Virus record (IMG/VR): IMGVR_UViG_3300033150_002389
DNA length: 56,517 bases
Strand: one strand, 5' to 3'
From: a virus
In this document: piece after piece, positions 20,620 through 44,396 of the stretch
How positions within the stretch are numbered: the first letter of the stretch is position 1
Layout of the letters: each line of letters begins with the position of its first letter
Position numbers and translations under genes: made by a program
Notes under the pieces: generated by a model
Databases searched by the model: none
What the model was told of the DNA's origin: nothing
The model's input: the letters and a program-made list of their open reading frames with translations, nothing else

Positions 20620-20625
20620 GGGACG

Positions 20626-22239: not shown

Positions 22240-22257
22240 GAAGAAAGGAGACGAATC

Positions 22258-27503: not shown

Positions 27504-27814
27504 TGGACGCCCAGTCAATTGCAAATGTGTGCGGAGGGCTACTATTGGGAGGTTATGCAGCTTTGCGAGTAATAAATTTCTTTCGGTCGAGGTCGAGTAG
27601 TTCAGGCGCCAATTCAAGGCAGAACACCGCTAACCGCGCTCACTGCCCTGAGGACAGCTGCAAGGCGACGGTCATCAGCACAGCAGAGAGGGTCAGGACC
27701 CACGATGACCAAATCTCGAAGCTCTTTGAAACAACAAAGAAGATCTCAGAAGATGTAGCCTTTATGAGGGGCAAATTGAGCGGCGCGAAAATAGTTCGCT
27801 TCCAAGAGGAGTGA
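27503..27814 (+). CDS. small membrane-anchored protein (holin or spanin candidate)
   Basis: TGATG stop/start overlap; N-terminal hydrophobic helix IANVCGGLLLGGYAALRVINFF. Confidence 0.3.
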   Translation: MDAQSIANVCGGLLLGGYAALRVINFFRSRSSSSGANSRQNTANRAHCPEDSCKATVISTAERVRTHDDQISKLFETTKKISEDVAFMRGKLSGAKIVRFQEE

Positions 27815-29709: not shown

Positions 29710-31242
29710 ATGAAAATGGCTAATTTTTTAGTGAATCCGCCGCCTGTCCCCTCAATAGGCAAGTCAATGCAAAACGCTTTAAGCCTGAAATACCTCCAGA
29801 CGAGGCAGGCATTGGCGGAGCGAGATTTGAGGGACGTAGGCAGAGCAGAGGAATACGAGAAGGCGAAACGAAGTCTGGATGCCTTTAACGCTTACATTGA
29901 CACCTATGAGAAAACCGGGAACAAGGACCTTGCTGACAAGGCCTTCAAGGCTTTGGAGCCAGATTCAGACCCTCCAGCTGAAACGTGGCGTATAGATAAA
30001 AACGACCGCCACTACACCTTTGCTGATGGCACCGAGGTAATTGGGGACCCCCAAGACGTCAAGACCGTGATGGAGGAACTCAGGCAGTATTTGCCCCAAA
30101 TTCACCAGAACCCGGAATACCAAGCCAGATTCTTTGATTTCGCAGCTGCACATAATGTCGGTATCAAGTTCGGTAAAGCTGGGGAAATTGAGCCCTTATA
30201 CGACACGGCTGAGCGGAGGGTTTATAACCTTCCCAAGGCGGAGGCTCGGGCGAAGAAAGCAGAAGATCCGGTGCGGTACCAGACCTATGATGAACGAATT
30301 GGAAAGAGGAAGAAGTGGGAGCCCTCCACCAAGGAAGAGTTGCTTGACCTTGAGGAAGCCAAGCAGAGAATCAGGGCAAAATACGAGCAGCCTGGATTGA
30401 CCCCGGCGCAAAAGAGCAGGCTGAACTTGCTCGAAGAGAAGGCAAAAGCAGAGATTGAAATAATACAGGCGTACCGCATGGGAGAAAAGGATCTTCAGGG
30501 CAACCCTGTTGTGCCTCCAGAACAGGCAGCGGCCGCAACTCGACGCCTCGAAGAAACCATGAAACAGATAGACCAAATCCGCGGCCAAAGACCAACCAAC
30601 GCTTTAGCTCAACCTACAGGAATAGCCCCTCGTGGAGCGCCTATAACGCCATCAGCATTACCGGAGGCTCCAAGAGCAACGGCACCTGCGGCGCCGACCC
30701 AACCGACTGCTGGCTCATTGTTTTCCAAGCTTGTCGCTATCCATGCCGAGCTACTCAAACAGGGCGTTGACCCTATGAGTCTTCCCAAGGTTCGGGCTGC
30801 AACAGAAGCTTACTTCAAGCAGAACCCGGAAGCGCAAGAGCGTTTTAGGGATGCCCTTAATGCCCAGCAGATTGAGGGTCCCCCTCCGGTTTCGCCAGAA
30901 GTCAACGCCATACGCCAGGAACTGCGCAAGGAGGCAACCCAGAACCTGACAATTGCTGAGGCGGCAAAAGAGATTGGGAAACGGCTTGTATCGGGCATGA
31001 GTCCCGAGCGCGCTGGCGCAGTAGCGGCAGAGTACCTCCCACTTTTACCGGAAGATGAAAAGGTGGTGGACTTCGACTCATTCAAGAAGTTCTTCAAGAA
31101 GGTGCGGAAGGCGGATAAGTGGACTGAGCAATACCTCCGGGAGGCCTTCAAGACCTATTGGAAAGGCTTGAATTGGGCTGGCAATGCCCTCTTGGGCATA
31201 AGGATTCCTGGAACAGCCGGACTCAGAAGCGAGGAGAAGTAA
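29710..31242 (+). CDS. internal virion / ejection protein (putative)
   Basis: 510 aa; position before the giant protein. Confidence 0.4.
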   Translation: MKMANFLVNPPPVPSIGKSMQNALSLKYLQTRQALAERDLRDVGRAEEYEKAKRSLDAFNAYIDTYEKTGNKDLADKAFKALEPDSDPPAETWRIDKNDRHYTFADGTEVIGDPQDVKTVMEELRQYLPQIHQNPEYQARFFDFAAAHNVGIKFGKAGEIEPLYDTAERRVYNLPKAEARAKKAEDPVRYQTYDERIGKRKKWEPSTKEELLDLEEAKQRIRAKYEQPGLTPAQKSRLNLLEEKAKAEIEIIQAYRMGEKDLQGNPVVPPEQAAAATRRLEETMKQIDQIRGQRPTNALAQPTGIAPRGAPITPSALPEAPRATAPAAPTQPTAGSLFSKLVAIHAELLKQGVDPMSLPKVRAATEAYFKQNPEAQERFRDALNAQQIEGPPPVSPEVNAIRQELRKEATQNLTIAEAAKEIGKRLVSGMSPERAGAVAAEYLPLLPEDEKVVDFDSFKKFFKKVRKADKWTEQYLREAFKTYWKGLNWAGNALLGIRIPGTAGLRSEEK

Positions 31243-31244
31243 AA

Positions 31245-34200
31245 TTGCCCAACCTCAATGCCCTCATTCAAAGCGCCGAACGGGAAGCACAAGCCGTTAC
31301 GGGCGTAAAAGCCAACGCCCTTACTACTGCAGCTAGCCCCTCAACCGAAGAAAAAGACTACCAAAATTACCTCCTTCAATACGCAGTAACAAACCCTGAA
31401 AATCCTGCCCACCATTACGACTATCGCTCTGCCTACAGGGCTGGCGTGAAACCGATTATGTGGGACGATCTACCCAAAGAGGTTAAAGAGGAGGATATCC
31501 AACAAGCAATTACAGGGGAACGGACTGGCCGCCCCATGTCGAGAGAAGAAGCAATCCAGTTTTACTCTGGTCATTACATGTGGCCCGACCAATTCAAGCT
31601 TCCCGGACACCCTGTACCGCCGAAAAAAGAGGCGATCAATGCCCTCATTGCGCAGGCAGCAGAAGAGGCCCAAGCCACATTGCAAGGCACGGAAACCGAG
31701 TATCATCCGTGGGGTGCCGCCAAGATGACAGTCTATGACGCGCTGTCTGGGCTTTCTGCGCTGCCGCGCACCATAGGCATGGGAGAGACCGCCCGCAATG
31801 TGGCTGAGTTCTACGATAAGCGGGCTGAAGCGGATCCGGATATCCGGGAATTCAAGAAGGCGTCCGAGCAAGGGCGGGAAAGTATATGGACTGAGGCACT
31901 GGGTTCCGCTGGCCCGACAGCCATGGCTCTGGGCATGAGATTCATCCCCTATGTGGGGTTTCCACTCGCAGCCTCTTATTTCTGGCACCTGAATAAAGAC
32001 GAGGTGAAGGACCTTGCGCTAGCAAAGGGTGCCGACGAAAAAACAGCGGAGAGGATTTCCTGGATAGGCGGCACCGTCAACTCTGCACTTGATGTCCTTG
32101 GCCTGGAGGCGATTGCTGGGAAAATGCCATTCCTTCGCGGGCCAGTGAAGAGCGTGAAGCACCGCCTGGTAGGTGCTGCAGTCCGCCTAATGGCCAGTAC
32201 AGGTGGCGAAGGTCTCACAGAGGGAATGCAGGAAGTCGTCGGCGAGCTATCGTCCGAATATGCGGCGAGCAAAGATGTCAGAGAATTTCTCGATCGAGTC
32301 AGCCAAAAGCAGTGGTGGGACAAAGCACTTGCCAAAGCTGAAAAGTCACTGAAAGTCGGCTCCATGATGGGGGCCGTCTTCGGTGGTGCTGCATCGGTGG
32401 CGGAAACCAGGCTTCAAAAGCGCCTTAAACCTGAGAAGGCAACCAAGCCCCTAGAGGCCCCGAAAGACCTGAGCGAGCTCATAGAAGAGGCTGAAAAAGA
32501 GTATACCGAAATCTTGCAACAGGAGGTGCCCCGTGATCGTAAAGAGGAAGAAAGGATATTACGTCGTGAGCGAGCACAAAGGCAAGGACGGAAAGAGGAG
32601 GAGGCTCGGCGGCCCGTACCCCACGAGGGAAGAGGCCGAGGAGAGGCTGGAGCAGGTGGAGTATTTCAAGGCCCGCAGCCGACACGCCCAACGGAAGAAG
32701 CGGTCCGCGTCGAGGAGGAATATCAGAAAGGAGACAGAGTAGAAACGCCGGAGGGCGCCGGCGAGGTCCTCAGGGTCGCGCCAGCGGAAACATCTGGGGA
32801 GGAAAAGCTGACAGTGAAGCTGGACGAGGGAGAAACTGTCGAGGTCTCTCCCGCCGAAGAGAAGGTGGAAAAGCCGTCCCCCCCACCGGAGGAAGTCGAC
32901 GAGGCGGCACAGGAAGCCGAGCCTGCCCCTACCGAGGCGCAGAAGGAAGCTGGCAATTACAAGAAGGGTCATATCAATATACAGGGGATGGATATCTCCA
33001 TTGAGAATCCAAAAGGTTCGATAAGGGAGGGCGTAGACAAGCAAGGGAAAAAGTGGAAATCAAAGGTCGCGGCCCACTATGGCTACATCAGGCGCACAGA
33101 GGGCAAAGACGGCGATCAGGTAGATGTCTTTATCGGCCCGCGCCCTGAAACCAACAGGGTATTCGTGATAGACCAGGTTGACCCAGAGACCGGCCTGTTT
33201 GACGAACACAAAGCGATGGTCGGTTTCCCTACGAAGAAGATGGCCAAGACGGCCTACCTCCGCAGCTACACCAAGGATTGGAAGGGCCTGGGGGCGATCA
33301 CGGAAATGACCGTCAATCAATTCAAAGATTGGATTAGGACGGGAGACTCGTCGGCGCCCCTGGGTCTTAAAGAAAAGCGCAAGGTAGCAAAGGACGCTAC
33401 ACGGGGGGCTGCCGGCAACCTGCTTATAAAGACCTCAGATCAGACGATCTACGAATCCAGGCAACCCGTTCACGCCCTGATGCTCGGCGAATTTGGCGTA
33501 AAGCCAGAAGATGTTATTGACACTGGCTTGATTGATAAAACCGGGAAAGAGATGTGGGCCGGCAGCAAAGAGATCAAGCCGCTAACTGAAGAAGTCGCCG
33601 CAGCTGTCCGAGAGCAGAGGAAGCGGGAGCAGCAGAAAAAGAGGGCGCAGCGCGCAGCTAAAGCCAAGACCTTTCGGCAATGGGTCGCCCTCACAGGGGG
33701 CATTAATCCCCAGGACAAGACCTGGCGTGGCGAAATCCGAGACATGCGCTATACAATGAATGCCGCCGGCAAAAAAGTTCCAGCGCCGGGCTGGCCAGTT
33801 GGCATTTGGAATCGCAAGGCAAGAGGCGTGGATGAGCGGACCCATGACGCTATTGAGGCCGGGTGGCTTCCCACAGCGGCTACAGAAGACGACTTCATGC
33901 AGGCCCTAGAGCAAAACATTACGACCAAAATAACAAAGGCTGGTGCCCAGGAAGATGTTGACACCGTCGTAAAAGAAGAGGAAGATAAGTTAGAGCAAGA
34001 GTACGAGAGGGAGCTGGCCCGCCTTAAGGTTAAAATCAAGGAGGAATGGGATGCCGGAGGACAAGAATACACACCCGCCGATCTCGAAGGAGCTGCGCGA
34101 GAGCTTGAAGCCTACCTTGCGGCGAATGAACGTGACGAGATTAAAGCTGCGAGTATTGAAGAACTTGAGGAAATCTGGCGTCTTTTCGACGAAGCAGTAA

Positions 34201-37200
34201 AGCCAGAACCCCCAGTTGTTGAACAAGCCCTAGACGAAGCATGGAAGGAGATTTCCCAAGAAGACCAGGACTGGCTTGATAAAGAGCTCGGCCTGAAACC
34301 CGCCGAAGAGAAGCAGGCAGAAAGACCCCCCGCCAGAAAGAGCCCTCCTGAGAGCAAATCTATAGACGATGCCATTGGATGGGTTCACGCTGTGCAGCAA
34401 AGCGTGTGGGATCCCACGGAAAAGAAATGGCATTACACCCCGCGTGAAAAGATTATCAGGGCTATTGAAAAAGCCAAGAAAGCCGGGGCTCGGGTCGAAC
34501 GCCTGCCCGGTACGGGAAGGGAAAGCGCTGAGACCTGGAAGCTCTATGACGACGAAAAGGGCCTTGTCTACGTCCTTCAGAGGGAACCAAATGGGCGGAC
34601 CACTTGGACAAGTCGCAGGATTCCCCCATCCGCGTCCAAAAAATCCTATGAAGACATCGTGAAGCAACTTGAAGCCAAAGGTTTTTACGGGACGATTGAT
34701 CGGTTGAAGCGCGGCCTAATAACACTGGATGAAGCGCACAAGGAACTTTTGGGAGCAAGGCTGAAAATTAAGGTAGTACCGCTAAACCCCGAAGAGTTCG
34801 CAGCGGAACTTAAAGCCAAGGGTGTTGGTAGGCAGGAATCCTGGAGCCACTGGATTAGAAAGACTGGCTTAAAGCCGGGCATGGACGCGAAAGACTGGTA
34901 TAAGATATACGATTCCGTTACACTGAGTAAGCTGGAGGCTGCGCAGAAACCCAAAGAAGTCGAGAAAGCACAGCCAAGGGAGAAGGCTGCAAGACCAGCC
35001 CTTGAACTCAAACCGACCGAGCCAACGCCTCAAGAGAGGGTCGAATTACTGAGGGCAAAAGGCGAGATTGAAAAGCCCATCAAGGCATATCGGGAAGGGG
35101 ATCGAGAAATCATTAAACTCCCCGATGGCCGCAAGCTCATAAGAGGCAGGGACAGTGAAGGCCGGATCTACTACGAAGTCGAAGGCTCCTGGGAGGGCCT
35201 CAAAGAACTGGGCTTTGACCCGGAAACCTTTACGATTGACCAGGCAAAGGCCGCCCGAGTCTTTCAGCAATACCTCAAGCCTAAAGCCGCTATCCCCAAA
35301 GAAAAGGTTAAACCCCCTACCACCGGCAAACAGAAGAGTCTGCTTGCCCCGGAGAAGGGGGAAACGCTTGATATTTTTGAGAGAGGTGTTGACAAGATAG
35401 GTGAAAGCGGGGCACAATACATTTATGCACCTACCACGCCCCAAGAGCAATATTCACTATTTGATTTCAAGCCTGCCGAACGGCAAGAGGATCGTAAAGT
35501 ACCTCCCCGTAGACGTGTGCGAGTTTCCACAACCGGACGAATTAGAGCGGCGGGAGAACTCGTATCAGGCCCAGAGGATGTTGCAGCCCTCCTCGCCTTC
35601 CTCAGAAAATCGCCACAAGAATTCCTTTACACGGTAACGACTGATAAAGAAGGTGGAATCCTTGAGATCCACAAGTACGCCAAGGGTCACAGCGCCGGTG
35701 CCATAGCCAACCCCGTTGAACTTGCTGGGCGGATACTGAACATACCTGGGGCATCTGAAGCTTATCTCGTCCACAACCATCCCACAGGTGACCCGAAACC
35801 AGGCAAAGAAGATTACCAGATAACTTCAAGCGTCAGGAGCCTTCTTGAGGCTGGCGATGTGGAACTGACATCACTTATTCTTGGTGGAACCGAATACGTT
35901 GAGATGCGCCCAGGGGAAGTGGCAGAGACAACAAGGAAGATCCGCCCCAGAATTCGCAAAATTAGCCTTCCGGTGAAAGAGCGCAGCCTGCTTCTCGGCG
36001 GCGCCCCACAGACTAGAATCGTCGATTCGGAGGACGCGCTCAAAGCCCTGAAGGAGCAATTCAATAATGACGATGGCGTTATGCTCCTTGACCGCAAAAA
36101 CAGGGTGCTTGCCTTTGTGCCCTTTATCAAAGGCAGAAGCATGAAGCAGACCACCGCCGACGTTCTAAGGATCGCCGAAGCCACCAACGCCAGCGGAATG
36201 ATCGTCAACAACAGCGTGCTAACCCAGGCGCGCTCGGACTACGTCAATGCCCTGTGGAACGGAATTGAAGGTTTGACGATAGTAGACGTATTTTGGGAAG
36301 CCCAATCGTGGGCTTCGCGACAAGGGCGTGGCAAAGGTCCCACAAAATATGCCACGCTTCTTTCCGAAACCAAACTAGCTCTCCGCGGCGAACAACCATA
36401 CCGCCTATCCCCGCGCCAATTCCGAAATATCAAAAGGACCGCCAAGCTGGTTCACTCCTGGCTCGAAAAAGCCGGAGCACCTCCCGAAGTGCTTGAGCGC
36501 ATTGATGTAGAGCTAAAGCCCATAATCTCCTTGAGCGGAAAAAATATTGCCAAGTCAGTGAAGGAGTGGCAGGAACAGGGCATGGGGATACGCCAGATTT
36601 TTGGTGCTACCACCTTTGACGATTATCGCGCGATTATGGAACTTGCCCTGTCGCTTCAGAATTTGAAAGGGCTGGAACGCACCACCTATCACGAATACAT
36701 GCACGTGGCCCAGAGATGGCTACTGACAAAATCCGATGCGGAGCACTTGATAAAATATTTTGGTAGCGAGGAGGCCGCTGCGGATGCCTTTGCGGAATTC
36801 ATGGTGAATCGCTCATCGCTCAAAGATAAGCCCAACATGATCCGCGCAATCATGATGAGGTTGCGCCGCTACCTGCAAATCATTAGGAACGGGCTCAAGG
36901 GACAGGGTTTTACCCGTCCCGAGGATATCTGGGGCAAAATGGTCACCGGGCAGTATGTCCCGCATTTTGGCGCACCAGAGATCGAAGAGACTACGACGGC
37001 TTTCTCTTTGGCGGAGCCCCCGGGGAAAGAAGCAGAAGTCGAGCCCCGCATAGTTCCGACCAAGCATTTCTCAGGCACATTTGATGACTGGAACAGGCAC
37101 GTGATCGAGACCTGGGAAAAATACGGCGGACGCAAAGGCACTTTTCAGGCTGAAGAGAAGAAATACGAACAGGGTTTTTCAAGGGGGTCCTTAGGCCCCC

Positions 37201-40200
37201 TCCGCACGCTTGGGGAAATATGGAAGAACCGCAAAGCTGGGTGGAAAGCTCAAAAGCCAGATACCACGGTCCTCGACCGCCTCATATCAGTGCCGGCACA
37301 TCACTTTGAGAAGGTCCCCGCTTTAAGGAGAATGTACGAGGCGGCTCTTGCCAGGCCCGACACCTACTATGAGTACCTGAATCTCCTAACCAAGAACAGT
37401 AAAGGTGAATACCTTACCAAAAAGCTGGAGGACTTCAGAAAGCGCCACAAACAGGACTACGCTAAGGTCAAGGCGTACCTAGTCAACCGCGACCGCAACC
37501 AAATAGGGTACAGGGTTGAGAAAGACGAGGGTAGCGACCTATGGAAGCTCAGGAAACCAAACGGCCAGTTAGTGGGCAGTTATGACTCTGAGGCCAAGGC
37601 ATGGGGCGCTGCCGTTCAAATGGAGGCTCAGGACCTTAGAAAGCGCGGCTTTCCCGACCAAGCCGTTGACGCGGTGGTGTCCTTCCGGCTAATCATGCAT
37701 AAAGGCTTTAATATCCTGTCAGCTTCGATGCGCGAAATTATCAGCCAATATGAGGAGTCGGGTACGGCACTACCCTCAGTAGCGGTCAGGCTGGACAACA
37801 AAAGGGTAGAAGTTGACCTCAAAACCGCCCTAGCCATGATGGGGGATATGCGAGGTTACTACTTCCCGCGCATAAGAAGGCCCGGGCGATTCGTGCTGTA
37901 CGCCGAAAAGAAGGGCGAAAACCCGATCATGGAATTCTTTGACACCAAAACGCTTCTTGCCAAGCGGCACACAGAACTCCAAAGGAAAGGGTACACCGTC
38001 ACGAAGGATCTCTCCCCCAAGATGCCGGAAGACGTCTTCGAAATGGCAGGCCAGGTCATTGCCATGCAGGCGCAGATCAATCAGGCCCTTGAGCGTATAC
38101 ATGCGCGCGGACTATCTTTAGAGGACTTTAACCTCCAGTGGACCGACAGGATGGTAAGGCCAGGGCTCAGGGACTTCGTTATCACCGGACCGACATCCAA
38201 GAGGATGACACGGGTCTTTAAGGAGCTGGGCGGAAAGTTCTATTCAGCGTATGAAGGGGAGCCGAGGGCCTGGCATTTCTACAACCCTGGCCCGAATTTC
38301 GACAAAAAGGTCGCAAAGGCGCTGGCCAACTCAGTTGGCATAGTTGACCAAGAGGTGCAGGTACTGTTCGCAAAAGCCATGGCCGAGCAAGTGGCCAACA
38401 TCATAAAGGGTCGTGGGCACCGTGCCCACATGATCCAGCGCCAAATGGCCAAGGGCAAGGATGTCTGGATCGGTTATGAGGAGGACCCGGCTATTGCCGC
38501 GGCGAAATATGCGTCGGGGTTGGCCGCAGGGGAGGCTAAAAGGATCGCAGCGCTTGACATGGTTCGAGCGTTCACTGGCACAGACATTACCTGGCAGCAG
38601 TACAAGACCCTTGAGGGCGAGGACGCCACGTATGAGGAGTGGCTCAACATGGTGGAGGACCGGCGGGTCAACCCCACGAAACAGCCCAATGCCTTCAGGG
38701 AAGGCAAAGCGTACCTGCAGGACGTGCTCAGGAACGAAGAGTGGATTGACCGGTTCGTGGGCACAGTCAAGGGCGTGGCGGTGCTGAAATATCTAGGCGG
38801 CCGCATCAGCGCCCCCTTGGTGAACCTCACTGCCATGGTAACGTCAGTCCCGGCAGCTATGGAAGGTATCGCTGGGATCCCGATACACAAGACCTTCCGT
38901 CTCATCGGCAACGCCTCCAGGCTTTACGGCCACTATAAATTCGGTGACAAGGATAAATTACCGCAGCACGTCAAGGACCTTTTTGAGGAGATCGAACAGA
39001 AAGGCTGGCACAAGTCGCAATACAATCGCGAAGCGCTGTCAGTTCTTGAGAGCAAGCTAGGCCGAGGGTGGAACAGGGCAATCGAATGGGCCATGCTCGG
39101 CTTCGGGGCTACCGAGCAACTCAACAGGGTTTCGACAATTGCAGGCACTTACCTTGGATTGAAGCTCCAAACACCCCAAGGGAGCTTTAACCACGACGAA
39201 GCCCTGCGCATTGCAAAGGAGGTCTCAGACAAGGCTCACGGAGTTTACGGAAAGGCGAATATCCCATACCTCGCTAGGGGCGCCAATCCTGCCGCGCAAA
39301 TTGCCAGAATGTTTTACGTATTCCGGACCTTTTCGCACAACTACCTTCTGACCATGAAGCGAGTGTGGGGTCCCGGCTGGAAGCCCGAGCACGCAAAGGC
39401 TTTTTCGTGGATGCTCCTGAGTCCAGCCGTGCTGGCCGGGACTGGGGCGACTGTCTCTACGCCTATCATAACGGCAATCGCTCAAGCCCTGGGCATAGGC
39501 GGAGAAGACCCAGAGGAAAAATTTTACGACTGGTTGAACCGGAATTTTGGCGAATACGCTGAGCGATTCGGCAGGTTCGGCGCTTTCGGTCTCGCAGGCG
39601 TATCCCTTAAGGGTTCGCTTCAGATCGGAATTACCGACATCCCAACGACGATACCCGAAATCCTTGGCGCTCCTGGAAGCGTCATATCTGAAACATTCTA
39701 CCGCGGTCCACAAAGCATTTTGCGTGGCGACGTCCTAAAGGGCATCGAAAATGAACTACCGCTCTTCATGGCCGGAATAGTAAAGGCATATAGAGAGACC
39801 ACAGAGGGGGTGACCACCAGAAACAATGCACCCGTCTTCTGGGGCAATGAACCGCTCCTCCCGGAGACGATTGATGCACTTTACAGAGCTCTCTCCTTTA
39901 ATCCCGCAAGGATCGCGGGGATTAGGGAGAAGCAATGGAAGGAGAGGCGCATTGAACAGAAATATCGAGAAATGAGGACGGATATCTACGCCAAGATCAA
40001 GCGCTTTTACCTGCGTCCCCTATCTGAACGGTCCAAGGCGGATTGGTTGGATATCATCGCTGAAATTCAAGATTACAACGAAGCGGTAAGGGCGCACGGG
40101 CTTGAGCGCCTCGCACCCCTCATCACCCGGAAATCCATACGAAACAATATCAGGCGGGCATTCCGGCCCCCAAAAAGGGAACGCCTAAGGCAGGCGATGC

Positions 40201-40205
40201 CATAA
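31245..40205 (+). CDS. giant polyvalent ejection protein (about 2986 aa) with pyrophosphatase-like, JAB/MPN and zincin HExxH domains
   Basis: TTG start with GAGGAG 8 nt upstream; DGDQVDVFIG (PPase signature-like), LVHNHPTGDPKPGKEDYQIT (JAB), HEYMH (zincin); C-terminal hydrophobic segments. Confidence 0.6.
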   Translation: MPNLNALIQSAEREAQAVTGVKANALTTAASPSTEEKDYQNYLLQYAVTNPENPAHHYDYRSAYRAGVKPIMWDDLPKEVKEEDIQQAITGERTGRPMSREEAIQFYSGHYMWPDQFKLPGHPVPPKKEAINALIAQAAEEAQATLQGTETEYHPWGAAKMTVYDALSGLSALPRTIGMGETARNVAEFYDKRAEADPDIREFKKASEQGRESIWTEALGSAGPTAMALGMRFIPYVGFPLAASYFWHLNKDEVKDLALAKGADEKTAERISWIGGTVNSALDVLGLEAIAGKMPFLRGPVKSVKHRLVGAAVRLMASTGGEGLTEGMQEVVGELSSEYAASKDVREFLDRVSQKQWWDKALAKAEKSLKVGSMMGAVFGGAASVAETRLQKRLKPEKATKPLEAPKDLSELIEEAEKEYTEILQQEVPRDRKEEERILRRERAQRQGRKEEEARRPVPHEGRGRGEAGAGGVFQGPQPTRPTEEAVRVEEEYQKGDRVETPEGAGEVLRVAPAETSGEEKLTVKLDEGETVEVSPAEEKVEKPSPPPEEVDEAAQEAEPAPTEAQKEAGNYKKGHINIQGMDISIENPKGSIREGVDKQGKKWKSKVAAHYGYIRRTEGKDGDQVDVFIGPRPETNRVFVIDQVDPETGLFDEHKAMVGFPTKKMAKTAYLRSYTKDWKGLGAITEMTVNQFKDWIRTGDSSAPLGLKEKRKVAKDATRGAAGNLLIKTSDQTIYESRQPVHALMLGEFGVKPEDVIDTGLIDKTGKEMWAGSKEIKPLTEEVAAAVREQRKREQQKKRAQRAAKAKTFRQWVALTGGINPQDKTWRGEIRDMRYTMNAAGKKVPAPGWPVGIWNRKARGVDERTHDAIEAGWLPTAATEDDFMQALEQNITTKITKAGAQEDVDTVVKEEEDKLEQEYERELARLKVKIKEEWDAGGQEYTPADLEGAARELEAYLAANERDEIKAASIEELEEIWRLFDEAVKPEPPVVEQALDEAWKEISQEDQDWLDKELGLKPAEEKQAERPPARKSPPESKSIDDAIGWVHAVQQSVWDPTEKKWHYTPREKIIRAIEKAKKAGARVERLPGTGRESAETWKLYDDEKGLVYVLQREPNGRTTWTSRRIPPSASKKSYEDIVKQLEAKGFYGTIDRLKRGLITLDEAHKELLGARLKIKVVPLNPEEFAAELKAKGVGRQESWSHWIRKTGLKPGMDAKDWYKIYDSVTLSKLEAAQKPKEVEKAQPREKAARPALELKPTEPTPQERVELLRAKGEIEKPIKAYREGDREIIKLPDGRKLIRGRDSEGRIYYEVEGSWEGLKELGFDPETFTIDQAKAARVFQQYLKPKAAIPKEKVKPPTTGKQKSLLAPEKGETLDIFERGVDKIGESGAQYIYAPTTPQEQYSLFDFKPAERQEDRKVPPRRRVRVSTTGRIRAAGELVSGPEDVAALLAFLRKSPQEFLYTVTTDKEGGILEIHKYAKGHSAGAIANPVELAGRILNIPGASEAYLVHNHPTGDPKPGKEDYQITSSVRSLLEAGDVELTSLILGGTEYVEMRPGEVAETTRKIRPRIRKISLPVKERSLLLGGAPQTRIVDSEDALKALKEQFNNDDGVMLLDRKNRVLAFVPFIKGRSMKQTTADVLRIAEATNASGMIVNNSVLTQARSDYVNALWNGIEGLTIVDVFWEAQSWASRQGRGKGPTKYATLLSETKLALRGEQPYRLSPRQFRNIKRTAKLVHSWLEKAGAPPEVLERIDVELKPIISLSGKNIAKSVKEWQEQGMGIRQIFGATTFDDYRAIMELALSLQNLKGLERTTYHEYMHVAQRWLLTKSDAEHLIKYFGSEEAAADAFAEFMVNRSSLKDKPNMIRAIMMRLRRYLQIIRNGLKGQGFTRPEDIWGKMVTGQYVPHFGAPEIEETTTAFSLAEPPGKEAEVEPRIVPTKHFSGTFDDWNRHVIETWEKYGGRKGTFQAEEKKYEQGFSRGSLGPLRTLGEIWKNRKAGWKAQKPDTTVLDRLISVPAHHFEKVPALRRMYEAALARPDTYYEYLNLLTKNSKGEYLTKKLEDFRKRHKQDYAKVKAYLVNRDRNQIGYRVEKDEGSDLWKLRKPNGQLVGSYDSEAKAWGAAVQMEAQDLRKRGFPDQAVDAVVSFRLIMHKGFNILSASMREIISQYEESGTALPSVAVRLDNKRVEVDLKTALAMMGDMRGYYFPRIRRPGRFVLYAEKKGENPIMEFFDTKTLLAKRHTELQRKGYTVTKDLSPKMPEDVFEMAGQVIAMQAQINQALERIHARGLSLEDFNLQWTDRMVRPGLRDFVITGPTSKRMTRVFKELGGKFYSAYEGEPRAWHFYNPGPNFDKKVAKALANSVGIVDQEVQVLFAKAMAEQVANIIKGRGHRAHMIQRQMAKGKDVWIGYEEDPAIAAAKYASGLAAGEAKRIAALDMVRAFTGTDITWQQYKTLEGEDATYEEWLNMVEDRRVNPTKQPNAFREGKAYLQDVLRNEEWIDRFVGTVKGVAVLKYLGGRISAPLVNLTAMVTSVPAAMEGIAGIPIHKTFRLIGNASRLYGHYKFGDKDKLPQHVKDLFEEIEQKGWHKSQYNREALSVLESKLGRGWNRAIEWAMLGFGATEQLNRVSTIAGTYLGLKLQTPQGSFNHDEALRIAKEVSDKAHGVYGKANIPYLARGANPAAQIARMFYVFRTFSHNYLLTMKRVWGPGWKPEHAKAFSWMLLSPAVLAGTGATVSTPIITAIAQALGIGGEDPEEKFYDWLNRNFGEYAERFGRFGAFGLAGVSLKGSLQIGITDIPTTIPEILGAPGSVISETFYRGPQSILRGDVLKGIENELPLFMAGIVKAYRETTEGVTTRNNAPVFWGNEPLLPETIDALYRALSFNPARIAGIREKQWKERRIEQKYREMRTDIYAKIKRFYLRPLSERSKADWLDIIAEIQDYNEAVRAHGLERLAPLITRKSIRNNIRRAFRPPKRERLRQAMP
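32533..32742 (+). CDS. embedded +1-frame ORF, 69-aa basic protein
   Basis: GTG with AGGAGG 6 nt upstream; GC3-rich codons in this frame while the host frame is low complexity with A-ending codons. Confidence 0.4.
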   Translation: MIVKRKKGYYVVSEHKGKDGKRRRLGGPYPTREEAEERLEQVEYFKARSRHAQRKKRSASRRNIRKETE

Positions 40206-40248: not shown

Positions 40249-40259
40249 GCGATGACCGA

Positions 40260-40288
40260 GGCGGCGCTTCAGCGCCGCCTGTTTTTTT
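40260..40288 (+). terminator. rho-independent terminator
   Basis: GGCGGCGC-ttca-GCGCCGCC stem followed by seven T. Confidence 0.7.
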
Positions 40289-40307
40289 ACCAAAAAGGAG
40301 ATTTGTC

Positions 40308-42875
40308 ATGAAATCCAGGCACTTAAAAATCGTTTTTCAGGCGCTTCTGATTATCTTTATGCTTCTCGCCCACCTTTCTTGGGCGGGAACCCTCATGTCC
40401 AATCCCAAGTTTCAAGCGTTCGACTCTTCCGGTGTACCCCTTGCCGGAGGAAAGCTCTACAGCTATCTCCCGGGTACCACGACAAGCAAGGCTACATACT
40501 CTGACCGCAACCTTTCGACGCCCAACACCAATCCTGTCATTTTGGATAGTCGCGGTGAGGCGACGATCTATGGGTCCGGGCTTTACAAGCTTGTCCTTAA
40601 AGATTCGTCCGATGTCACTATCTGGACCATGGATAACGTGGAATTCGTGGGGGGAGGGGGATCTTACAATCTCTATCCTAACCCCTCGGAAAGTGACCAT
40701 GGCGCTGCTGGAAACGGATCGTCACTTTACGACCTCCTTACGGCACTAGGCACCAGCAAAAAAGCGACCGTGGCGTTCACCCATAACGGCTCCTCGAACA
40801 CCACCACCTACACGGTCAACACCACCTACGACATTTCTTCCTACACCAACGTAACGTTTCAATTCGAAAACGGTGCCCTCCTCTCTCCTGCTGCTGGAGT
40901 GACGGTAACGATTTATTCGCCGGAGAATATTAATGCGCCGGCAACACAACAGATTTTTGATGGTGATGGATCAATCGCCTATTCTGTTCCAGGGCACATA
41001 TATACCGGCTGGTACGGGTCTGACACTGATGCTTATCAAGATGCTTTTGGCAACGCAAATTGCCATATCACCTGCACTCATGATGTCAGCCTTACAGATA
41101 AAATTACAATACAAGATGGTCAGTGGATTGACTTTCTCCCAGGTGTGGTACTAACTCAGACCGGCACAGATAAAAATACTTTTTATGCTTCTTCAAAAAA
41201 TAATATCACCATTGATGGCCGAGGCGGAAAACTGGTTGGCAGATTGGTTACAGAGCAGCTTACAGACAGAGGATTAATCCATTTTGATGGTTGCACAGAT
41301 GTCAGAGTAACTGATCTTGAGGTAATGACCGGCTTTGATTTGGTTTGGATTGCTAATTCGGATCGTGTATGGGTAGAGAGAAACGAGCTGCATAACTACC
41401 AGCGTGTTGCACTGAATGGCACGAGCAATACAAAATTTCATTTTGATAAAAATACTATTTACGACAATCAGGAAACAGGGAAGCAGAATTGTTATGCTAT
41501 CCAAGCAACAGGTGATAATGATGGCGGCAGCCCGCTTGAATATTCCTCAATCAATTTTAACAAGATAACAGGTCCTCGGGCCTGGGATGGCATTATGTCT
41601 CATGACTGTGACGATCTTGAGATTATAGGCAATGTCATAAAAGATGTTCGCCAGGGGATTGATGTTGGGCTGGCAGGCAGCACAAATATAGTTAAGAATG
41701 TAAGGATCATTGGAAATTATCTTGAAGGCACCTCAACGGATACTTGGTCTGGCACAGGTGCTAATAATTCCGGCATTCAAATCTCTGGTCAACCTGTGGC
41801 AGGCGATTGGACAGATTTTGATGCTATTTCAGATGTAGTAGTGTCAGACAATATCATTACTGGCTTCAATAAGCACACAACATCCGCTGGAAATGCAGGG
41901 ATTTTTGCTCAATATATCAGAAATTTCTCGCTTACAGGAAATGTGATTTACGGCTTGGAAGATAATTGGACTCATGGTGCTGGGATTGTATTAGTTGGTG
42001 CGACGGTTTCTGGGACAATTTCAGGAAACACTATCACAGCTAAATCAGGCGAAACAGGTCCTATGAATCAGGGAATTCGTCTGTATAACCTTGATCTATG
42101 TTACGGTGTTACAGTTGTTGGCAATACAATTGCCGATGAATCAGGCAATATGGATTATGCTATTCGGGTAACAGGTTCAAATTTTATAGATGCAGTAGTT
42201 GAAAAGAATAACTTTTACGGTTTTACCACACCTTACAATTTTGGAGCCACTGGAAACAAAGGCCCTCTGCCATTTTGTGATGTAGGCTATTGGAATGGTA
42301 ATGCTTGGGCTAATCCCGTTACCTATTTAGGCGCGAAGATGCGTTATTATACTGCTACTGATAAAGTTGACACTGGGGGGTTGGTTCTTAGAAAGCGTAT
42401 AGAAGATACAATTGCCTCAGTGGACGACACTGATACGATTACTATAAATGGATCAACATCTAATATGGCAGTTGGAGACGTAATTCACATTTTCAAAGAT
42501 ACAGATGAGTCTAGTCCTTATGTTCATAGTACTACAATCGCAACGATTGTCGATGCTGATACTATAGACATTACAGGTGCACTTGGAGCAACAACGGAGG
42601 TCTCAGCGGGGAATAAAATCTACGTTGTAGAATGGGAAAAGCCGTATGCATCAGGGACGGGGACAATTGCCAGTGGAACAACAAGCAAGGTTATTACTCA
42701 TGGATTAGGATTTACCCCCGACCCACAAGATATAACCATTACTCTAATAGAAAATCCTACAAATACCCCAGGGGCAATCTGGGTAGATAGTATTGGCGAT
42801 ACAACTTTTACGGTAAACTGTGAGAATGACCCTGGTGCATCAAATCTGGATTTTGCTTGGAAATATAGGAAATAA
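40308..42875 (+). CDS. tailspike / tail fiber with right-handed beta-helix (pectate-lyase-like) domain
   Basis: AAGGAG SD; conserved tail-fiber N-terminal motif ...GVPLAGGKLYSYLPGTTTSKATYSD...NTNPVILDSRGEA; beta-helix repeat motifs; AT-rich C-terminal two-thirds. Confidence 0.65.
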   Translation: MKSRHLKIVFQALLIIFMLLAHLSWAGTLMSNPKFQAFDSSGVPLAGGKLYSYLPGTTTSKATYSDRNLSTPNTNPVILDSRGEATIYGSGLYKLVLKDSSDVTIWTMDNVEFVGGGGSYNLYPNPSESDHGAAGNGSSLYDLLTALGTSKKATVAFTHNGSSNTTTYTVNTTYDISSYTNVTFQFENGALLSPAAGVTVTIYSPENINAPATQQIFDGDGSIAYSVPGHIYTGWYGSDTDAYQDAFGNANCHITCTHDVSLTDKITIQDGQWIDFLPGVVLTQTGTDKNTFYASSKNNITIDGRGGKLVGRLVTEQLTDRGLIHFDGCTDVRVTDLEVMTGFDLVWIANSDRVWVERNELHNYQRVALNGTSNTKFHFDKNTIYDNQETGKQNCYAIQATGDNDGGSPLEYSSINFNKITGPRAWDGIMSHDCDDLEIIGNVIKDVRQGIDVGLAGSTNIVKNVRIIGNYLEGTSTDTWSGTGANNSGIQISGQPVAGDWTDFDAISDVVVSDNIITGFNKHTTSAGNAGIFAQYIRNFSLTGNVIYGLEDNWTHGAGIVLVGATVSGTISGNTITAKSGETGPMNQGIRLYNLDLCYGVTVVGNTIADESGNMDYAIRVTGSNFIDAVVEKNNFYGFTTPYNFGATGNKGPLPFCDVGYWNGNAWANPVTYLGAKMRYYTATDKVDTGGLVLRKRIEDTIASVDDTDTITINGSTSNMAVGDVIHIFKDTDESSPYVHSTTIATIVDADTIDITGALGATTEVSAGNKIYVVEWEKPYASGTGTIASGTTSKVITHGLGFTPDPQDITITLIENPTNTPGAIWVDSIGDTTFTVNCENDPGASNLDFAWKYRK

Positions 42876-43127
42876 ACCGATTACCGTACTCAAACAAGAC
42901 AGTTATGGAAGCGGATGAGCATACCCAATGGATGGTGTAACTGAACAAATTCTATCATCATGTTCTATTAGTACGGAGATGGTAGCAAAGACATTCTTCC
43001 CAGAGCGCTTTCGTCTACCATTCGCCAAAGAGATTCATGGGAAGATTTTTAACCTCATTAAGTTGGGCTATGTTTTACCATCTTTTTGCCGCTAGGTGGG
43101 TAAGGTCCTGAAAGTATTACTCAGTCC

Positions 43128-43155
43128 GCTGGTTCAAATCCAGTCGTCCCGACCA
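43128..43155 (+). other. tRNA 3'-end-like sequence (T-arm GCTGG-TTCAAAT-CCAGT, acceptor 3' strand, CCA); attP core candidate
   Basis: T-loop and acceptor read directly; no matching 5' acceptor strand or anticodon arm upstream; 20 nt from the integrase stop. Confidence 0.45.
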
Positions 43156-43175
43156 GCGATTTGCAATAATATCGG

Positions 43176-44396
43176 TTAGTTATCGCTTTCGGAGTGCCTA
43201 AATTTCTTTGCCACTTTTTTGCCACCCCTAGCATCGGAATAGATGGCCCTGAGGTCGTCTCCTTCCTCCCAGTAGTAGCGGTCAAATGCCTTGGTAGTGC
43301 TCCTCATCGAGCCATAGCGGATCTCCTCCGGGGTGCGGTATTTTCTGAGAGCCCTGGTGGTTGAGTGGGTAGTGCCCCCGTAGAGGTCCACTCCCTGGAT
43401 TCCGAGCTTGGCACAGGCCCGCTTCCACCACTTGTAAAAATGTTTCTCGCCGAATTGCCTCCCATTCTTATGGCGGAAGAAATAGGCGTCAGGATCTATG
43501 CAAGGGGGTAGGGCCCCCAAGATCTCCACGTCTTCGTCAATGAGATACACGATTTTGGACCTATTCTCCTTGGGGTGCCGTATCAGGATCTCTCTTGCCT
43601 TCAGGTTGATGTCCCCTTCCCGGATATTGCGCCATTCCTCGGGCCGCACGTTAAAGTAGGTGGTCATCCATTTGATGCCCAGCCAGGTCTTGTAGGGGGC
43701 CCACCCCTTCAGCGTATCCAAGATACCGAATTGGTCTGCCTTCGTAACAGTCTTTCGCCGGCGAAGCTCAAACTGGACCTTCGGGAACTTGGGCATTACC
43801 GAGATCTCATCATTATCGTAAAGCCACTTGAAGAACTGCTTAAGTGTCTGAATATAATTGAATTTGCTCTTATTGCTGACGTTATACTGGGTGAGAAAAA
43901 ACTGGAAGTCTTTCAGGCGCAGGCGTTTTACGCTGACAGGGCCAAAAACTCGAATCGCCTTCCAAATATGGTCTTCAAGGGCCCGATAGGTGTTTGGGCT
44001 GATGCCGTCCGGCCTGATCTCCGCCTCTCGGAGGCGGAGCCACTCATTGGCTAGATTTTCAAACCCAAGGGGATTATCAGCCCGATATTCCCTGGGGTCG
44101 AACGTTCCCTCATCCTCCTTGAACCTGAGGCCAGTGAGGCATTTTTGAGCGGCCTCGTAGCTCCTGAAACGCCGTGTGACCCCCCTGAAGTAGATCCGAA
44201 ACCGCCTGCTGGCCCTTTGCTCTGGATGGTTCGGGCAGAAGAGTCCCCTCCGACCATCATCTTTAAACCTGCCCCCGCATAAGGGGCACTTTTCATCAGA
44301 ATAGATTCCCCCTTTCATGCAATCGCCCCCAACCCCAGATTTGGCTGATACGGGGCCGATCTTACGTTGGTAAGGGGTAGATGTCAAGGAGGCCAT
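43176..44396 (-). CDS. int: tyrosine recombinase / phage integrase
   Basis: C-terminal HSTTRAL (HxxR) and AFDRYY catalytic Tyr region; adjacent to tRNA-like att sequence. Confidence 0.7.
   Translation of the reverse strand: MASLTSTPYQRKIGPVSAKSGVGGDCMKGGIYSDEKCPLCGGRFKDDGRRGLFCPNHPEQRASRRFRIYFRGVTRRFRSYEAAQKCLTGLRFKEDEGTFDPREYRADNPLGFENLANEWLRLREAEIRPDGISPNTYRALEDHIWKAIRVFGPVSVKRLRLKDFQFFLTQYNVSNKSKFNYIQTLKQFFKWLYDNDEISVMPKFPKVQFELRRRKTVTKADQFGILDTLKGWAPYKTWLGIKWMTTYFNVRPEEWRNIREGDINLKAREILIRHPKENRSKIVYLIDEDVEILGALPPCIDPDAYFFRHKNGRQFGEKHFYKWWKRACAKLGIQGVDLYGGTTHSTTRALRKYRTPEEIRYGSMRSTTKAFDRYYWEEGDDLRAIYSDARGGKKVAKKFRHSESDN

What the first reader, a model, noticed from the sequence alone, without database searches (positions are those of the whole stretch)
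40308..42875. Mosaic tailspike: conserved GC-rich N-terminal anchor fused to an AT-rich beta-helix domain, with a signal-peptide-like extension
The first 600 nt or so match the genome's GC content and encode a widely shared tail-fibre N-terminal motif. From about 40950 onward the composition turns AT-rich and encodes parallel beta-helix repeats, consistent with a horizontally acquired depolymerase or receptor-binding module. The SD-supported start adds a hydrophobic 25-residue N-terminus (IVFQALLIIFMLLAHLSWAG), which is unusual for a tail fibre.
Basis: partly seen in the sequence, partly recalled or inferred. Interest (0 to 1): 0.5.

Follow-up and report, generated by a model that had tools for sequence, protein, structure and literature searches.

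The report
Mosaic phage tailspike carrying export signal
This gene encodes the receptor-binding tailspike of a complete 56-kb temperate short-tailed phage: its front end is native, its enzyme body was swapped in from an AT-richer relative, and, unusually, it and at least 27 uncultured relatives start with a classic secretion signal, which suggests the spike is exported to the periplasm before it joins the virus particle.

Summary
All three observations hold. ORF 40308-42875 (855 aa) is the only large receptor-binding protein of a complete, circular, integrase-bearing podovirus genome.

**Mosaic.** Third-position GC falls from 0.625 to 0.326 at codon ~175-215 (nt ~40830-40950). The genome's other ORFs average 0.605 +/- 0.083. 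Identity to N-terminal relatives drops at the same point. The beta-helix has few relatives (best 48%). The last 76 residues are a third, widely shared module (60-78% identity).

**Tailspike.** Residues 36-111 match a solved "tailspike head-binding domain" (7EEQ). Pfam, AlphaFold2 and Foldseek (P22, HK620, Sf6 tailspikes) confirm the beta-helix.

**Signal peptide.** This is the interesting part, and it is not a start-codon artefact. A strong Shine-Dalgarno sequence precedes the ATG. I counted 28 distinct homologues, the window included, with unrelated but textbook Sec/SPase-I signals (charged n-region, 9-24-residue hydrophobic core, mostly AxA site). The predicted cut lies mostly 4-9 residues before the conserved PKF motif, about where signal-less homologues begin. 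None of the cultured-phage relatives I inspected has one, and seven full-text literature searches found no precedent.

**Most likely mechanism (inferred).** Sec export, periplasmic folding, and attachment to tailless particles at lysis, possibly with receptor destruction from within.

The mosaic is ordinary. The exported-tailspike subfamily looks new.

The parts
40259..40288 (+). Intrinsic-terminator-like hairpin (9-bp stem, 8 G-C pairs, loop of 4) followed by a T7 run. It lies between the stop of the giant upstream gene (40205) and the tailspike start.
   Evidence: scan; sequence. No promoter-like site lies between it and the ATG, so the tailspike is probably made by read-through or antitermination (inference).
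40295..40300 (+). Shine-Dalgarno sequence AAGGAG, 7 nt upstream of the ATG at 40308.
   Evidence: All five other signal-bearing homologues examined at DNA level also have an SD (GGAGG or AGGGG type) before the signal-peptide ATG.
40308..40385 (+). Predicted Sec/SPase-I signal peptide, residues 1-26: n-region MKSRHLK (+3), hydrophobic h-region, c-region HLSWA, predicted cut SWA|GT.
   Evidence: AF2 models residues 3-23 as a lone helix followed by a disordered linker at 23-27.
40395..40646 (+). Domain D1, residues 30-113: tailspike head-binding (virion-attachment) domain, with native GC3.
   Evidence: PDB 7EEQ 'Tailspike head-binding domain' E 6e-6 and 9VYG tail spike; PHROG 26190; 55-65% identity to over 100 proteins; high pLDDT.
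40665..41003 (+). Domain D2, residues 120-232: second conserved N-terminal module. It contains the recombination junction.
   Evidence: AF2. It is shared with the close relatives and also with P0002, P0072 and P0089, which lack D1.
40830..40950 (+). Composition and ancestry break (codons ~175-215): GC3 goes from 0.625 to 0.326, and identity to the P0003/P0004-type relatives falls from ~65% to ~46% and then ~38%.
41064..42218 (+). Right-handed parallel beta-helix, residues 253-637: the presumed glycan-binding and glycan-cleaving body.
   Evidence: Pfam PF13229. AF2 pLDDT is mostly above 90 in the N-terminal half and more mixed (about 67-97) towards its C-terminal end. Foldseek hits P22, HK620, Det7, CBA120 TSP3 and Sf6 tailspikes. 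The nearest sequence relatives are only 48% (P0126) and 41% (P0002) identical.
42237..42644 (+). Residues 644-779: a poorly modelled C-terminal region shared only with P0126 and P0002.
42645..42875 (+). Residues 780-855 plus the stop codon: a small C-terminal module 60-78% identical to many of the listed proteins, some of which (87-140 aa) consist of little else.
42876..43095 (+). AT-rich (~0.40 GC) non-coding tail that continues the imported segment.

Best explanation
The gene encodes the single tailspike (receptor-binding, probably glycan-cleaving protein) of a complete temperate P22-style podovirus. It is a recombinant. The signal peptide, the head-binding domain D1 and the first half of D2 are native to this genome. 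Everything from about residue 190 onward was acquired by a crossover inside the conserved D2 coding sequence from a relative living in an AT-richer background. That imported part comprises the rest of D2, the beta-helix, the C-terminal modules and ~220 nt of 3' flank.

The protein is translated from the ATG at 40308 as a precursor with a cleavable Sec signal peptide. The inferred pathway is as follows:
1. SecYEG exports the unfolded chain.
2. Signal peptidase I cuts after Ala26. This gives a mature N-terminus (GTLMSNPKF...) equivalent to that of signal-less homologues.
3. The trimer folds in the periplasm.
4. It meets DNA-filled, spike-less particles only when lysis merges the compartments. 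It then docks through D1 on the tail hub.

While in the periplasm it may also cut the cell's own nascent surface polysaccharide. That would strip receptors from the dying cell and its debris.

My estimates for the separate steps:
- Mosaic tailspike: ~0.95.
- Signal peptide translated and Sec-targeting: ~0.85.
- Signal peptide cleaved: ~0.7.
- Periplasmic maturation with attachment at lysis: ~0.4.
- Receptor destruction from within: ~0.25.

The overall confidence given (0.6) is for the statement as a whole up to and including export and cleavage.
For: **Genome context**
- A 70-nt terminal repeat shows a circular, complete genome.
- TerL, portal, MCP, adaptor, a P22-gp10-like hub, ejection proteins and a 3015-aa internal protein precede the gene. 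An integrase follows it.
- No other large fibre or spike gene is present.

**Tailspike identity:**

**Mosaic**
- GC3 change point and genome-wide comparison.
- The identity profile breaks at the same place.
- The word-indexed search found 8 hits to residues 240-855. The exhaustive HMMER search gave a best hit of 48% identity.

**Signal peptide is real**
- A strong SD precedes the ATG.
- 20 protein-database homologues, 3 GTDB loci and 5 further IMG/VR loci carry N-terminal extensions. These have no mutual sequence similarity, yet all have a net-positive n-region, a 9-24-residue uncharged hydrophobic core and a -3/-1 small-residue site, mostly AxA.
- The predicted cut falls 4-9 residues before the invariant Pro of the PKF motif in most of them. 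This is about where signal-less homologues start (M-G/P/S-x-L-L-x-Y-P-K-F).
- The same heuristic flags only 2 of 47 ORFs in this genome.
- Signal-bearing genes sit in the same syntenic slot as signal-less ones. In L001 the start overlaps the upstream stop, ATGA.
- Five of the six signal-bearing genes examined at DNA level have no in-frame start between the cut site and D1.
- Met30 of the window aligns with a conserved hydrophobic position (I/L/M) in homologues. It does not align with their start codon.

**Host is probably diderm:** the hub and D1 co-occur only in phages of Proteobacteria and Cyanobacteria among cultured records.

**Plausibility of periplasmic action:** a periplasmic beta-helix lyase (VexL) degrades capsule in transit, whereas a cytosolic version does not (PMC6003464). 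WceF is a Tat-exported tailspike-fold EPS hydrolase (PMC7949094).

**Plausibility of late attachment:** P22 heads and tailspikes assemble in vitro. This is established knowledge that I did not test here.
Against: - No export, cleavage or enzyme activity has been shown. Everything after translation is inference.
- SignalP and similar trained predictors were not available. Only a rule-based check was run.
- Assembly of a tailed-phage component outside the cytoplasm has no documented precedent that I could find, and dilution at lysis would cost efficiency.
- The window alone has an in-frame ATG at codon 30, so a cytoplasmic isoform cannot be excluded here.
- The host is unknown. MAG bin labels (Bacteroidales, Dehalococcoidia, Patescibacteria, Deltaproteobacteria) are unreliable for phage contigs. 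If the host is monoderm, 'periplasm' becomes 'outside the cell'.
- The donor of the AT-rich module was not found.
- The NJ tree used to judge gains and losses rests on 85 residues and is weak.
Confidence: 0.6

Rival explanations
1. Two products from one gene. The ATG at 40308 gives an exported, free depolymerase that loosens capsule or biofilm or destroys receptors. An internal start at Met30 (40395) gives the cytoplasmic spike that is built into virions.
For: The window has an in-frame ATG at codon 30, one residue before the conserved NPKF, with a weak G-rich stretch (GGGCGGGA) upstream. Free and virion-bound forms of phage depolymerases are discussed in the literature (PMC10521650).
Against: Five of the six signal-bearing genes examined at DNA level have no ATG, GTG or TTG between the cut site and D1, so this cannot be the general logic of the subfamily. 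Met30 aligns with a conserved hydrophobic residue (I/L/M), and signal-less relatives start about 3 residues further upstream. There is no canonical SD before codon 30.
Confidence: 0.15
2. Uncleaved signal-anchor. The N-terminal helix tethers the spike to the inner membrane until holin-induced depolarisation releases it, in the manner of SAR endolysins. Alternatively it localises late assembly at the membrane.
For: AF2 models residues 3-23 as a single helix of transmembrane length. Some homologues have long h-regions of 20-24 residues (P0029, P0031, P0040) that could act as anchors. P0126, the nearest beta-helix relative, has an N-terminal hydrophobic segment without an obvious AxA site.
Against: The core is Leu/Ile/Phe-rich (Kyte-Doolittle 3.25), unlike the Gly/Ala/Ser-rich, weakly hydrophobic SAR domains. 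This comparison rests on my own knowledge of SAR endolysins. The window and nearly all of the 23 homologues tested have a -3/-1 site, mostly AxA, at a conserved distance from D1. That conservation is hard to explain without cleavage.
Confidence: 0.1
3. Annotation artefact. Translation really starts at Met30, and the hydrophobic stretch is untranslated leader that happens to be open.
For: Most family members (about 90 of 113) start at the position equivalent to residues 26-30. Cultured-phage matches that seemed to extend upstream (Vibrio phages) turned out to be spurious non-hydrophobic read-through.
Against: There is a strong SD with ideal spacing at 40295-40300 and none at codon 30. Tripartite signal-peptide features recur in 28 diverged sequences, against 2 of 47 ORFs in this genome. 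Close variants P0023, P0024 and P0025 differ in the extension only by conservative changes (K/R, I/L, A/T). In L001 the start is translationally coupled.
Confidence: 0.05
4. Not a virion protein any more. It would be a spike-derived exoenzyme (a moron) that the prophage secretes for lysogenic conversion or superinfection exclusion.
For: A terminator-like hairpin separates it from the structural operon. The phage is temperate (integrase). Bacterial tailspike-fold enzymes with export signals exist: WceF and VexL.
Against: The phage would then have no receptor-binding protein. D1 remains 60-80% identical to virion-anchoring domains. No promoter-like site lies between the terminator and the ATG. 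A signal-bearing homologue occurs in a phage with DNA polymerase A and no integrase in the 22 kb seen (L002), so the trait is not tied to lysogeny.
Confidence: 0.05

Closest known systems
P22-type podovirus tailspikes (P22 gp9, HK620, Sf6) and the solved 'tailspike head-binding domain' 7EEQ / tail spike 9VYG
   Same: It has an N-terminal head-binding domain (sequence match to 7EEQ and 9VYG) followed by a right-handed parallel beta-helix. It is the last gene of the structural operon in a phage with a gp10-like hub. Modular exchange occurs downstream of the anchor.
   Different: None of those proteins has a signal peptide (my own knowledge). Nor did the cultured-phage relatives I inspected: two Vibrio records translated and a Rhodoferax-phage homologue, P0086, that starts MAFLMPQG. 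There is an extra D2 domain and a widely shared 76-residue C-terminal module. Beta-helix sequence identity to solved spikes is only 10-17%.
Pantoea stewartii WceF and Burkholderiales VexL (exported bacterial beta-helix polysaccharide depolymerases)
   Same: They are tailspike-like or pectate-lyase-like beta-helices preceded by an export signal, and they act on the cell's own polysaccharide in or beyond the periplasm (PMC7949094; PMC6003464).
   Different: They are encoded in polysaccharide-biosynthesis loci, not in a phage structural operon. WceF uses a Tat signal. Neither has a virion head-binding domain.
Secretory and SAR endolysins (e.g. Oenococcus phage fOg44 Lys44; P1 Lyz) - from my own knowledge
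   Same: They are tailed-phage late proteins that use the host Sec system to reach the periplasm or cell wall before lysis.
   Different: They are lysis enzymes, not virion components. SAR domains are weakly hydrophobic and uncleaved, whereas this signal is strongly hydrophobic with an AxA-type site.
Filamentous-phage receptor-binding protein g3p - from my own knowledge
   Same: It is a phage receptor-binding protein made with a cleavable Sec signal peptide.
   Different: Inoviruses assemble at and extrude through the envelope. This is a tailed dsDNA phage with an HK97-type capsid, terminase and portal, whose heads are packaged in the cytoplasm.

Membership tests
Podovirus tailspike (P22-like architecture) | N-terminal head-binding/virion-attachment domain | tested here: met
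   Residues 36-111 match PDB 7EEQ 'Tailspike head-binding domain' (E 6e-6) and 9VYG tail spike chains. The top Foldseek hits are full-length P22 tailspike 2XC1/8U1O.
Podovirus tailspike (P22-like architecture) | Right-handed parallel beta-helix body | tested here: met
   Pfam PF13229, E 6e-11. AF2 shows strands at residues 253-637, with pLDDT mostly above 90 in the N-terminal half and more mixed towards the end. Foldseek hits HK620, Sf6, Det7 and CBA120 spikes.
Podovirus tailspike (P22-like architecture) | Encoded with a podovirus tail hub (gp10-like 'stabilisation' protein), at the end of the structural operon | tested here: met
   PHROG 578 Hc3, E 2.5e-99, at 25216-26610. The same synteny is seen in L001-L004. 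Hub and D1 co-occur in the same cultured phages.
Podovirus tailspike (P22-like architecture) | Homotrimer present on virions; glycanase or receptor-binding activity | not testable with these tools
   This needs virion proteomics, cryo-EM and an enzyme assay.
Sec-type (SPase I) signal peptide | Positively charged n-region, 7-15+ residue hydrophobic h-region, small residues at -3 and -1 | tested here: met
   Window: charge +3, hydrophobic core with KD 3.25, S-W-A|G. All 23 homologues tested have an n-region and h-region of this kind, and nearly all have a comparable site. Five more IMG/VR loci also show the features.
Sec-type (SPase I) signal peptide | Not a lipoprotein (no lipobox Cys at +1) and not Tat (no S/T-R-R-x-F-L-K) | tested here: met
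   The window sequence MKSRHLKIVFQALLIIFMLLAHLSWAG has no Cys and no twin arginine. A few homologues (P0023-25, LTSC) could be lipoproteins.
Sec-type (SPase I) signal peptide | Score from a trained predictor (SignalP/DeepTMHMM) | not tested
   No such tool was available. A rule-based test was used instead, with 2 of 47 positives among this genome's ORFs as background.
Sec-type (SPase I) signal peptide | Demonstrated export and cleavage | not testable with these tools
   This needs PhoA/Bla fusions and N-terminal sequencing.
SAR (signal-anchor-release) domain | Weakly hydrophobic, Gly/Ala/Ser-rich N-terminal TM segment, not cleaved | tested here: not met
   The h-region is Leu/Ile/Phe-rich (10-residue KD mean 3.25) and is followed by an AxA-type site.
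Exported bacterial EPS/CPS depolymerases (WceF/VexL type) | Encoded within a polysaccharide biosynthesis locus; no virion-attachment domain | tested here: not met
   The gene sits in a phage structural operon and carries a head-binding domain.

The most novel reading that the evidence does not exclude
A clade of uncultured podoviruses routes its only tailspike through the Sec pathway. The spike would then mature in the periplasm and the virion would be completed only at lysis. That is a two-compartment assembly pathway for a tailed phage. The exported spike could double as a receptor-destroying enzyme that acts on the infected cell from within. Signal-bearing and signal-less versions are interleaved among close relatives, which would mean the trait is gained and lost readily and is under ecological selection.
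Probability: 0.35. Interest if true: 0.8.

Novelty: new variant of a known kind. Interest (0 to 1): 0.6.

Why it matters
Tailed-phage virions are taken to be assembled entirely in the cytoplasm. A receptor-binding protein that carries a conserved, precisely placed secretion signal challenges that assumption. It also gives a directly testable system: is the spike exported, where does it join the particle, and does it strip the host's own surface glycan?

If the signal is functional, there are practical consequences. Phage host-range prediction and depolymerase mining pipelines often discard signal-peptide-bearing proteins as 'not structural'. Such pipelines would miss real tailspikes.

The mosaic itself is a clean, datable example of cassette exchange that uses a conserved N-terminal domain as the homology arm.

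Tried and rejected
1. **Cultured phages with the signal.** tblastn hits to Vibrio phages 41E34.2 and 1.184.A seemed to cover query residues 1-29. Translation showed non-hydrophobic upstream read-through and annotated starts at MAVAMIGPKF, so they have no signal.
2. **Disulfide-folding rationale for export.** Cysteine content of mature signal-bearing spikes (median 1.0%) does not differ from signal-less clade members (0.95%; Mann-Whitney p 0.47). I dropped this idea.
3. **Internal-start (dual product) logic as a general rule.** It is not supported in 5 of 6 genes.
4. **Host identification.**
   - The exact protein is not on record in the contig index.
   - GTDB hits are MAG bins of conflicting phyla.
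   - ARAGORN found no tRNA.
   - Rfam found nothing in 42850-43250. The tRNA-like 3' fragment next to the integrase therefore remains a visual impression only.
5. **Donor of the AT-rich module.** The word-indexed search gave 8 hits. The exhaustive search gave a best hit of 48% identity. No donor was found.
6. **Literature precedent for a signal peptide on a tail fibre or tailspike.** Seven full-text searches returned only endolysin and esterase cases, bacterial tailspike-like enzymes, or routine 'no signal peptide' statements.
7. **Promoter between terminator and ATG.** None was found.
8. **C-terminal 200 residues.** The AF2 model there is low-confidence (pLDDT below 50), so I made no structural claim about them.
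Full report
**1. What is there**

The window is a complete circular phage genome. Its first and last 70 bases are identical. It reads as a temperate podovirus:

| Coordinates | Feature |
|---|---|
| 9226 | large terminase |
| 13315 | portal |
| 17166 | HK97-type major capsid protein |
| 24278 | adaptor |
| 25216 | P22-gp10-like hub ('stabilisation/Hc3', PHROG 578, E 2.5e-99) |
| 27811 | NlpC/P60 hydrolase |
| 29061, 29710 | ejection proteins |
| 31158-40205 | 3015-aa internal protein with InPase and RadC/JAB domains |
| 40308-42875 | the gene in question |
| 43176-44396 (-) | tyrosine integrase |
| beyond 44929 | leftward early genes |

The 855-aa ORF is the only large candidate receptor-binding protein.

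**2. The observation**

All three parts of the observation are confirmed.

- *Composition.* GC drops from ~0.52 to ~0.41 near 40900. The change is at synonymous sites. GC3 is 0.625 before and 0.326 after a change point at codon 192, with a likelihood plateau over codons 175-215 and a log-likelihood gain of 27. The other 41 ORFs average GC3 0.605 +/- 0.083. The N-part (0.625) is typical, and the C-part (0.325) is the lowest in the genome. The AT-rich tract runs ~220 nt past the stop.
- *Start site.* AAGGAG lies 7 nt upstream of the ATG at 40308.
- *N-terminus.* MKSRHLKIVFQALLIIFMLLAHLSWA|GT has a +3 n-region, a strongly hydrophobic core and an S-W-A site.

**3. It is a tailspike**

- Residues 36-111 match the PDB entries 7EEQ ('Tailspike head-binding domain', E 6e-6) and 9VYG ('Tail spike protein').
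- Pfam finds Beta_helix at residues 324-482.
- AlphaFold2 (mean pLDDT 76, pTM 0.71) gives this layout:
  - a lone helix at 3-23;
  - a disordered linker at 23-27;
  - a beta domain D1 at 30-113;
  - a second domain D2 at 120-232;
  - a long beta-helix at 253-637, with pLDDT mostly above 90 in its first half and more mixed towards the end;
  - a poorly modelled tail at 644-855.
- Foldseek against the PDB returns full-length P22 tailspike first (2XC1, 8U1O; E ~2e-7). HK620, Det7, CBA120 TSP3 and Sf6 spikes follow.
- Among cultured phages, the same D1 and the same hub protein co-occur in small podophages of Vibrio, Rhodoferax, Shewanella, Thalassomonas, Xanthomonas, Ralstonia and (hub only) Pseudanabaena. 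All these hosts are diderm. By inference, the host here is probably diderm too.

**4. The mosaic**

Of the 120 listed homologues, 113 align across the D1 region. Most share only residues ~28-112 at 55-65% identity. About 40 share residues 28-240. Their C-terminal parts are unrelated to this one.

For residues 240-855, the word-indexed search found 8 proteins (best 39%). An exhaustive HMMER pass over 1.84 billion representatives found a best hit of 48% (P0126) and 41% (P0002), both with different N-termini.

The last 76 residues are a separate, widely shared module. It is 60-78% identical to many of the listed proteins, and some of those, only 87-140 aa long, consist of little else.

The junction is not at a domain border. 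Identity to the closest N-terminal relatives (P0003, P0004 and others) is 60-70% up to residue 190. It then falls to 46% (190-215), 38% (215-240) and 13% (beyond 240). Residues 190-215 resemble a different lineage, at 76% to P0006. This coincides with the GC3 break. The simplest reading is a homologous crossover inside the conserved D2 coding sequence, which imported the remainder of the gene and its 3' flank from an AT-richer relative. The donor is not in the databases.

**5. The signal peptide is a selected, recurrent feature**

Among the 113 homologues that contain D1, 20 (the window's own protein included) carry an N-terminal extension. Three more were found in GTDB contigs (L007, L009, L059). 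Seven of 80 IMG/VR loci have one, five of them new (L080, L081, L083, L086, L092). The total is 28 distinct signal-bearing sequences, the window included.

- The extensions do not resemble one another in sequence. All have a net-positive n-region (+1 to +4) and an uncharged hydrophobic core of 9-24 residues. Nearly all have a -3/-1 small-residue site, mostly AxA.
- The predicted cut lies 4-9 residues before the invariant Pro of the PKF motif in most of them. That is about the position where signal-less relatives begin (M-G/P/S-x-L-L-x-Y-P-K-F), so both kinds would yield the same mature N-terminus.
- The same rule flags only 2 of 47 ORFs in this genome.
- All six signal-bearing genes examined at DNA level have a good SD before the signal-peptide ATG. 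In L001 the ATG overlaps the upstream stop.
- Five of the six have no alternative in-frame start between the cut site and D1. The window's Met30 aligns with a conserved hydrophobic position, not with the start codon of homologues.
- Signal-bearing genes occupy the same slot as signal-less ones, directly after a large ejection protein.
- The trait occurs in a phage with DNA polymerase A and no integrase in the 22 kb seen (L002), so it is not tied to lysogeny.
- On a (weak) NJ tree of D1, the signal-bearing sequences are confined to one clade but interleaved with signal-less ones. This needs at least ~13 state changes. The closest pair illustrates it: P0004 (66% identical, genuinely signal-less, with its own SD) against the window.
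- Two spike-like relatives with different N-terminal domains (P0072, P0126) also start with a hydrophobic signal-like segment.

**6. How it most likely works**

*Shown:* a tailspike precursor with all the sequence hallmarks of a Sec/SPase-I substrate.

*Inferred:*
- Sec export of the unfolded chain.
- Cleavage after Ala26.
- Folding and trimerisation in the periplasm.
- Docking on spike-less, DNA-filled particles once holin and endolysin action merges the compartments.

P22 heads and spikes assemble efficiently in vitro. This is established knowledge that I did not test here.

A plausible benefit is degradation of the cell's own nascent polysaccharide, so that progeny are not trapped on debris and late superinfection is blocked. 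Periplasmic VexL degrades capsule in transit, whereas a cytosolic derivative does not (PMC6003464). WceF is a Tat-exported tailspike-fold EPS hydrolase (PMC7949094). A disulfide-folding rationale is not supported, because cysteine content is unchanged.

*Rivals, with my estimates:*
- dual products from Met1 and Met30 (possible for this gene only), 0.15;
- an uncleaved membrane anchor, 0.10;
- a start-codon artefact, 0.05;
- a non-virion secreted enzyme, 0.05.

**7. Comparison with what is known, and novelty**

In architecture and context this is a member of the P22-style tailspike family, with a Pam1-type (7EEQ-like) head-binding domain. The mosaicism is the family's normal mode of evolution and is ordinary.

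The Sec signal is not ordinary. The cultured relatives I inspected lack it. Seven full-text searches found no description of a signal peptide on a tailed-phage fibre or spike. The library does not cover most subscription journals, so a precedent cannot be excluded.

The nearest analogues are secretory and SAR endolysins and inovirus g3p (my own knowledge), and the bacterial enzymes WceF and VexL. I therefore rate it a new variant of a known kind. Interest is moderate to high for the signal peptide and low for the mosaic.

Noticed in passing
window 1-70 and 56448-56517: There is an exact 70-nt terminal direct repeat. The contig is therefore a circular assembly, a complete phage genome of ~56.4 kb, and not a prophage with host flanks.
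   Followed up: partly
window 31158-40205 (+): A giant 3015-aa ORF sits immediately upstream of the tailspike. It has an inorganic-pyrophosphatase-like domain (PF18823, E 1e-59), a RadC-like JAB domain and an HEYMH (HExxH) motif. It is probably an internal or ejected virion protein. Homologous positions in related phages hold 927-1594-aa proteins.
   Followed up: partly
window 18956-24311 (+): A cluster of two glycosyltransferases, two methyltransferase-domain proteins and a sulfotransferase-like protein is embedded in the structural operon between the capsid and adaptor genes. Related phages carry other glycan genes: NeuB, CMP-sugar synthetase and aminotransferase in L001, and radical SAM plus SASA esterase next to the spike in L003. 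This may mean virion or host-glycan modification linked to spike specificity.
   Followed up: no
window 18075-18467 and 18540-18932 (+): Two tandem 130-aa paralogues lie directly after the major capsid gene, with near-identical N-termini (MPSFY.DAQYGV.ERL...KRFYPKGPIKILKFGIQH). They have no family match and may be decoration proteins.
   Followed up: no
window ~43100-43160 (+), next to integrase stop at 43176: The sequence ...GCTGGTTCAAATCCAGTCGTCCCGACCA looks like the T-arm and 3' acceptor end of a tRNA. That would fit an attP core for integration into a tRNA gene. ARAGORN and Rfam report nothing, so this is unconfirmed.
   Followed up: partly
window 11454-11879, 12044-12640 (+), 4403-4723 (-): There are three other small exported-looking proteins. 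One has a Tat-type signal (PF10518, below cutoff). One is a lipoprotein if started at the internal Met (MRKSFRLFLVLASMLLLAWAGAGC). One is a secreted 106-aa protein (MKKLIVFAALLFVLFWPLYA|GAG). The first two lie between the terminase and portal genes and are relatively AT-rich.
   Followed up: no
window 42645-42872 (+), residues 780-855: This 76-residue C-terminal module (...GTIASGTTSKVITHGLGFTP...NCENDPGASNLDFAW...) is 60-78% identical to many otherwise unrelated proteins and also occurs nearly alone in 87-140-aa proteins. It has no Pfam or PHROG match and its function is unknown.
   Followed up: partly
window 40259-40288 (+): A strong terminator-like hairpin lies between the giant gene and the tailspike, with only 19 nt before the ATG. 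Spike expression would need read-through or antitermination. A similar GC-hairpin/T-run precedes the signal-less homologue in L003/L004.
   Followed up: partly
P0126 and P0072 (database proteins): P0126 is the nearest relative of the beta-helix and has a different N-domain. P0072 is a D2-containing relative with a different first domain. Both also begin with hydrophobic signal-like segments. Export signals on spike-like proteins may therefore extend beyond the D1 family.
   Followed up: no
window 26614-27153 (+) and 27811-28437 (+): A 179-aa tail protein carries a T4 Gp10_C-like domain (PF21939), which may be a fibre or spike adaptor. A 208-aa NlpC/P60 peptidoglycan hydrolase is a candidate endolysin or virion-associated lysin. 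No canonical holin, spanin or lysozyme cassette was identified.
   Followed up: no
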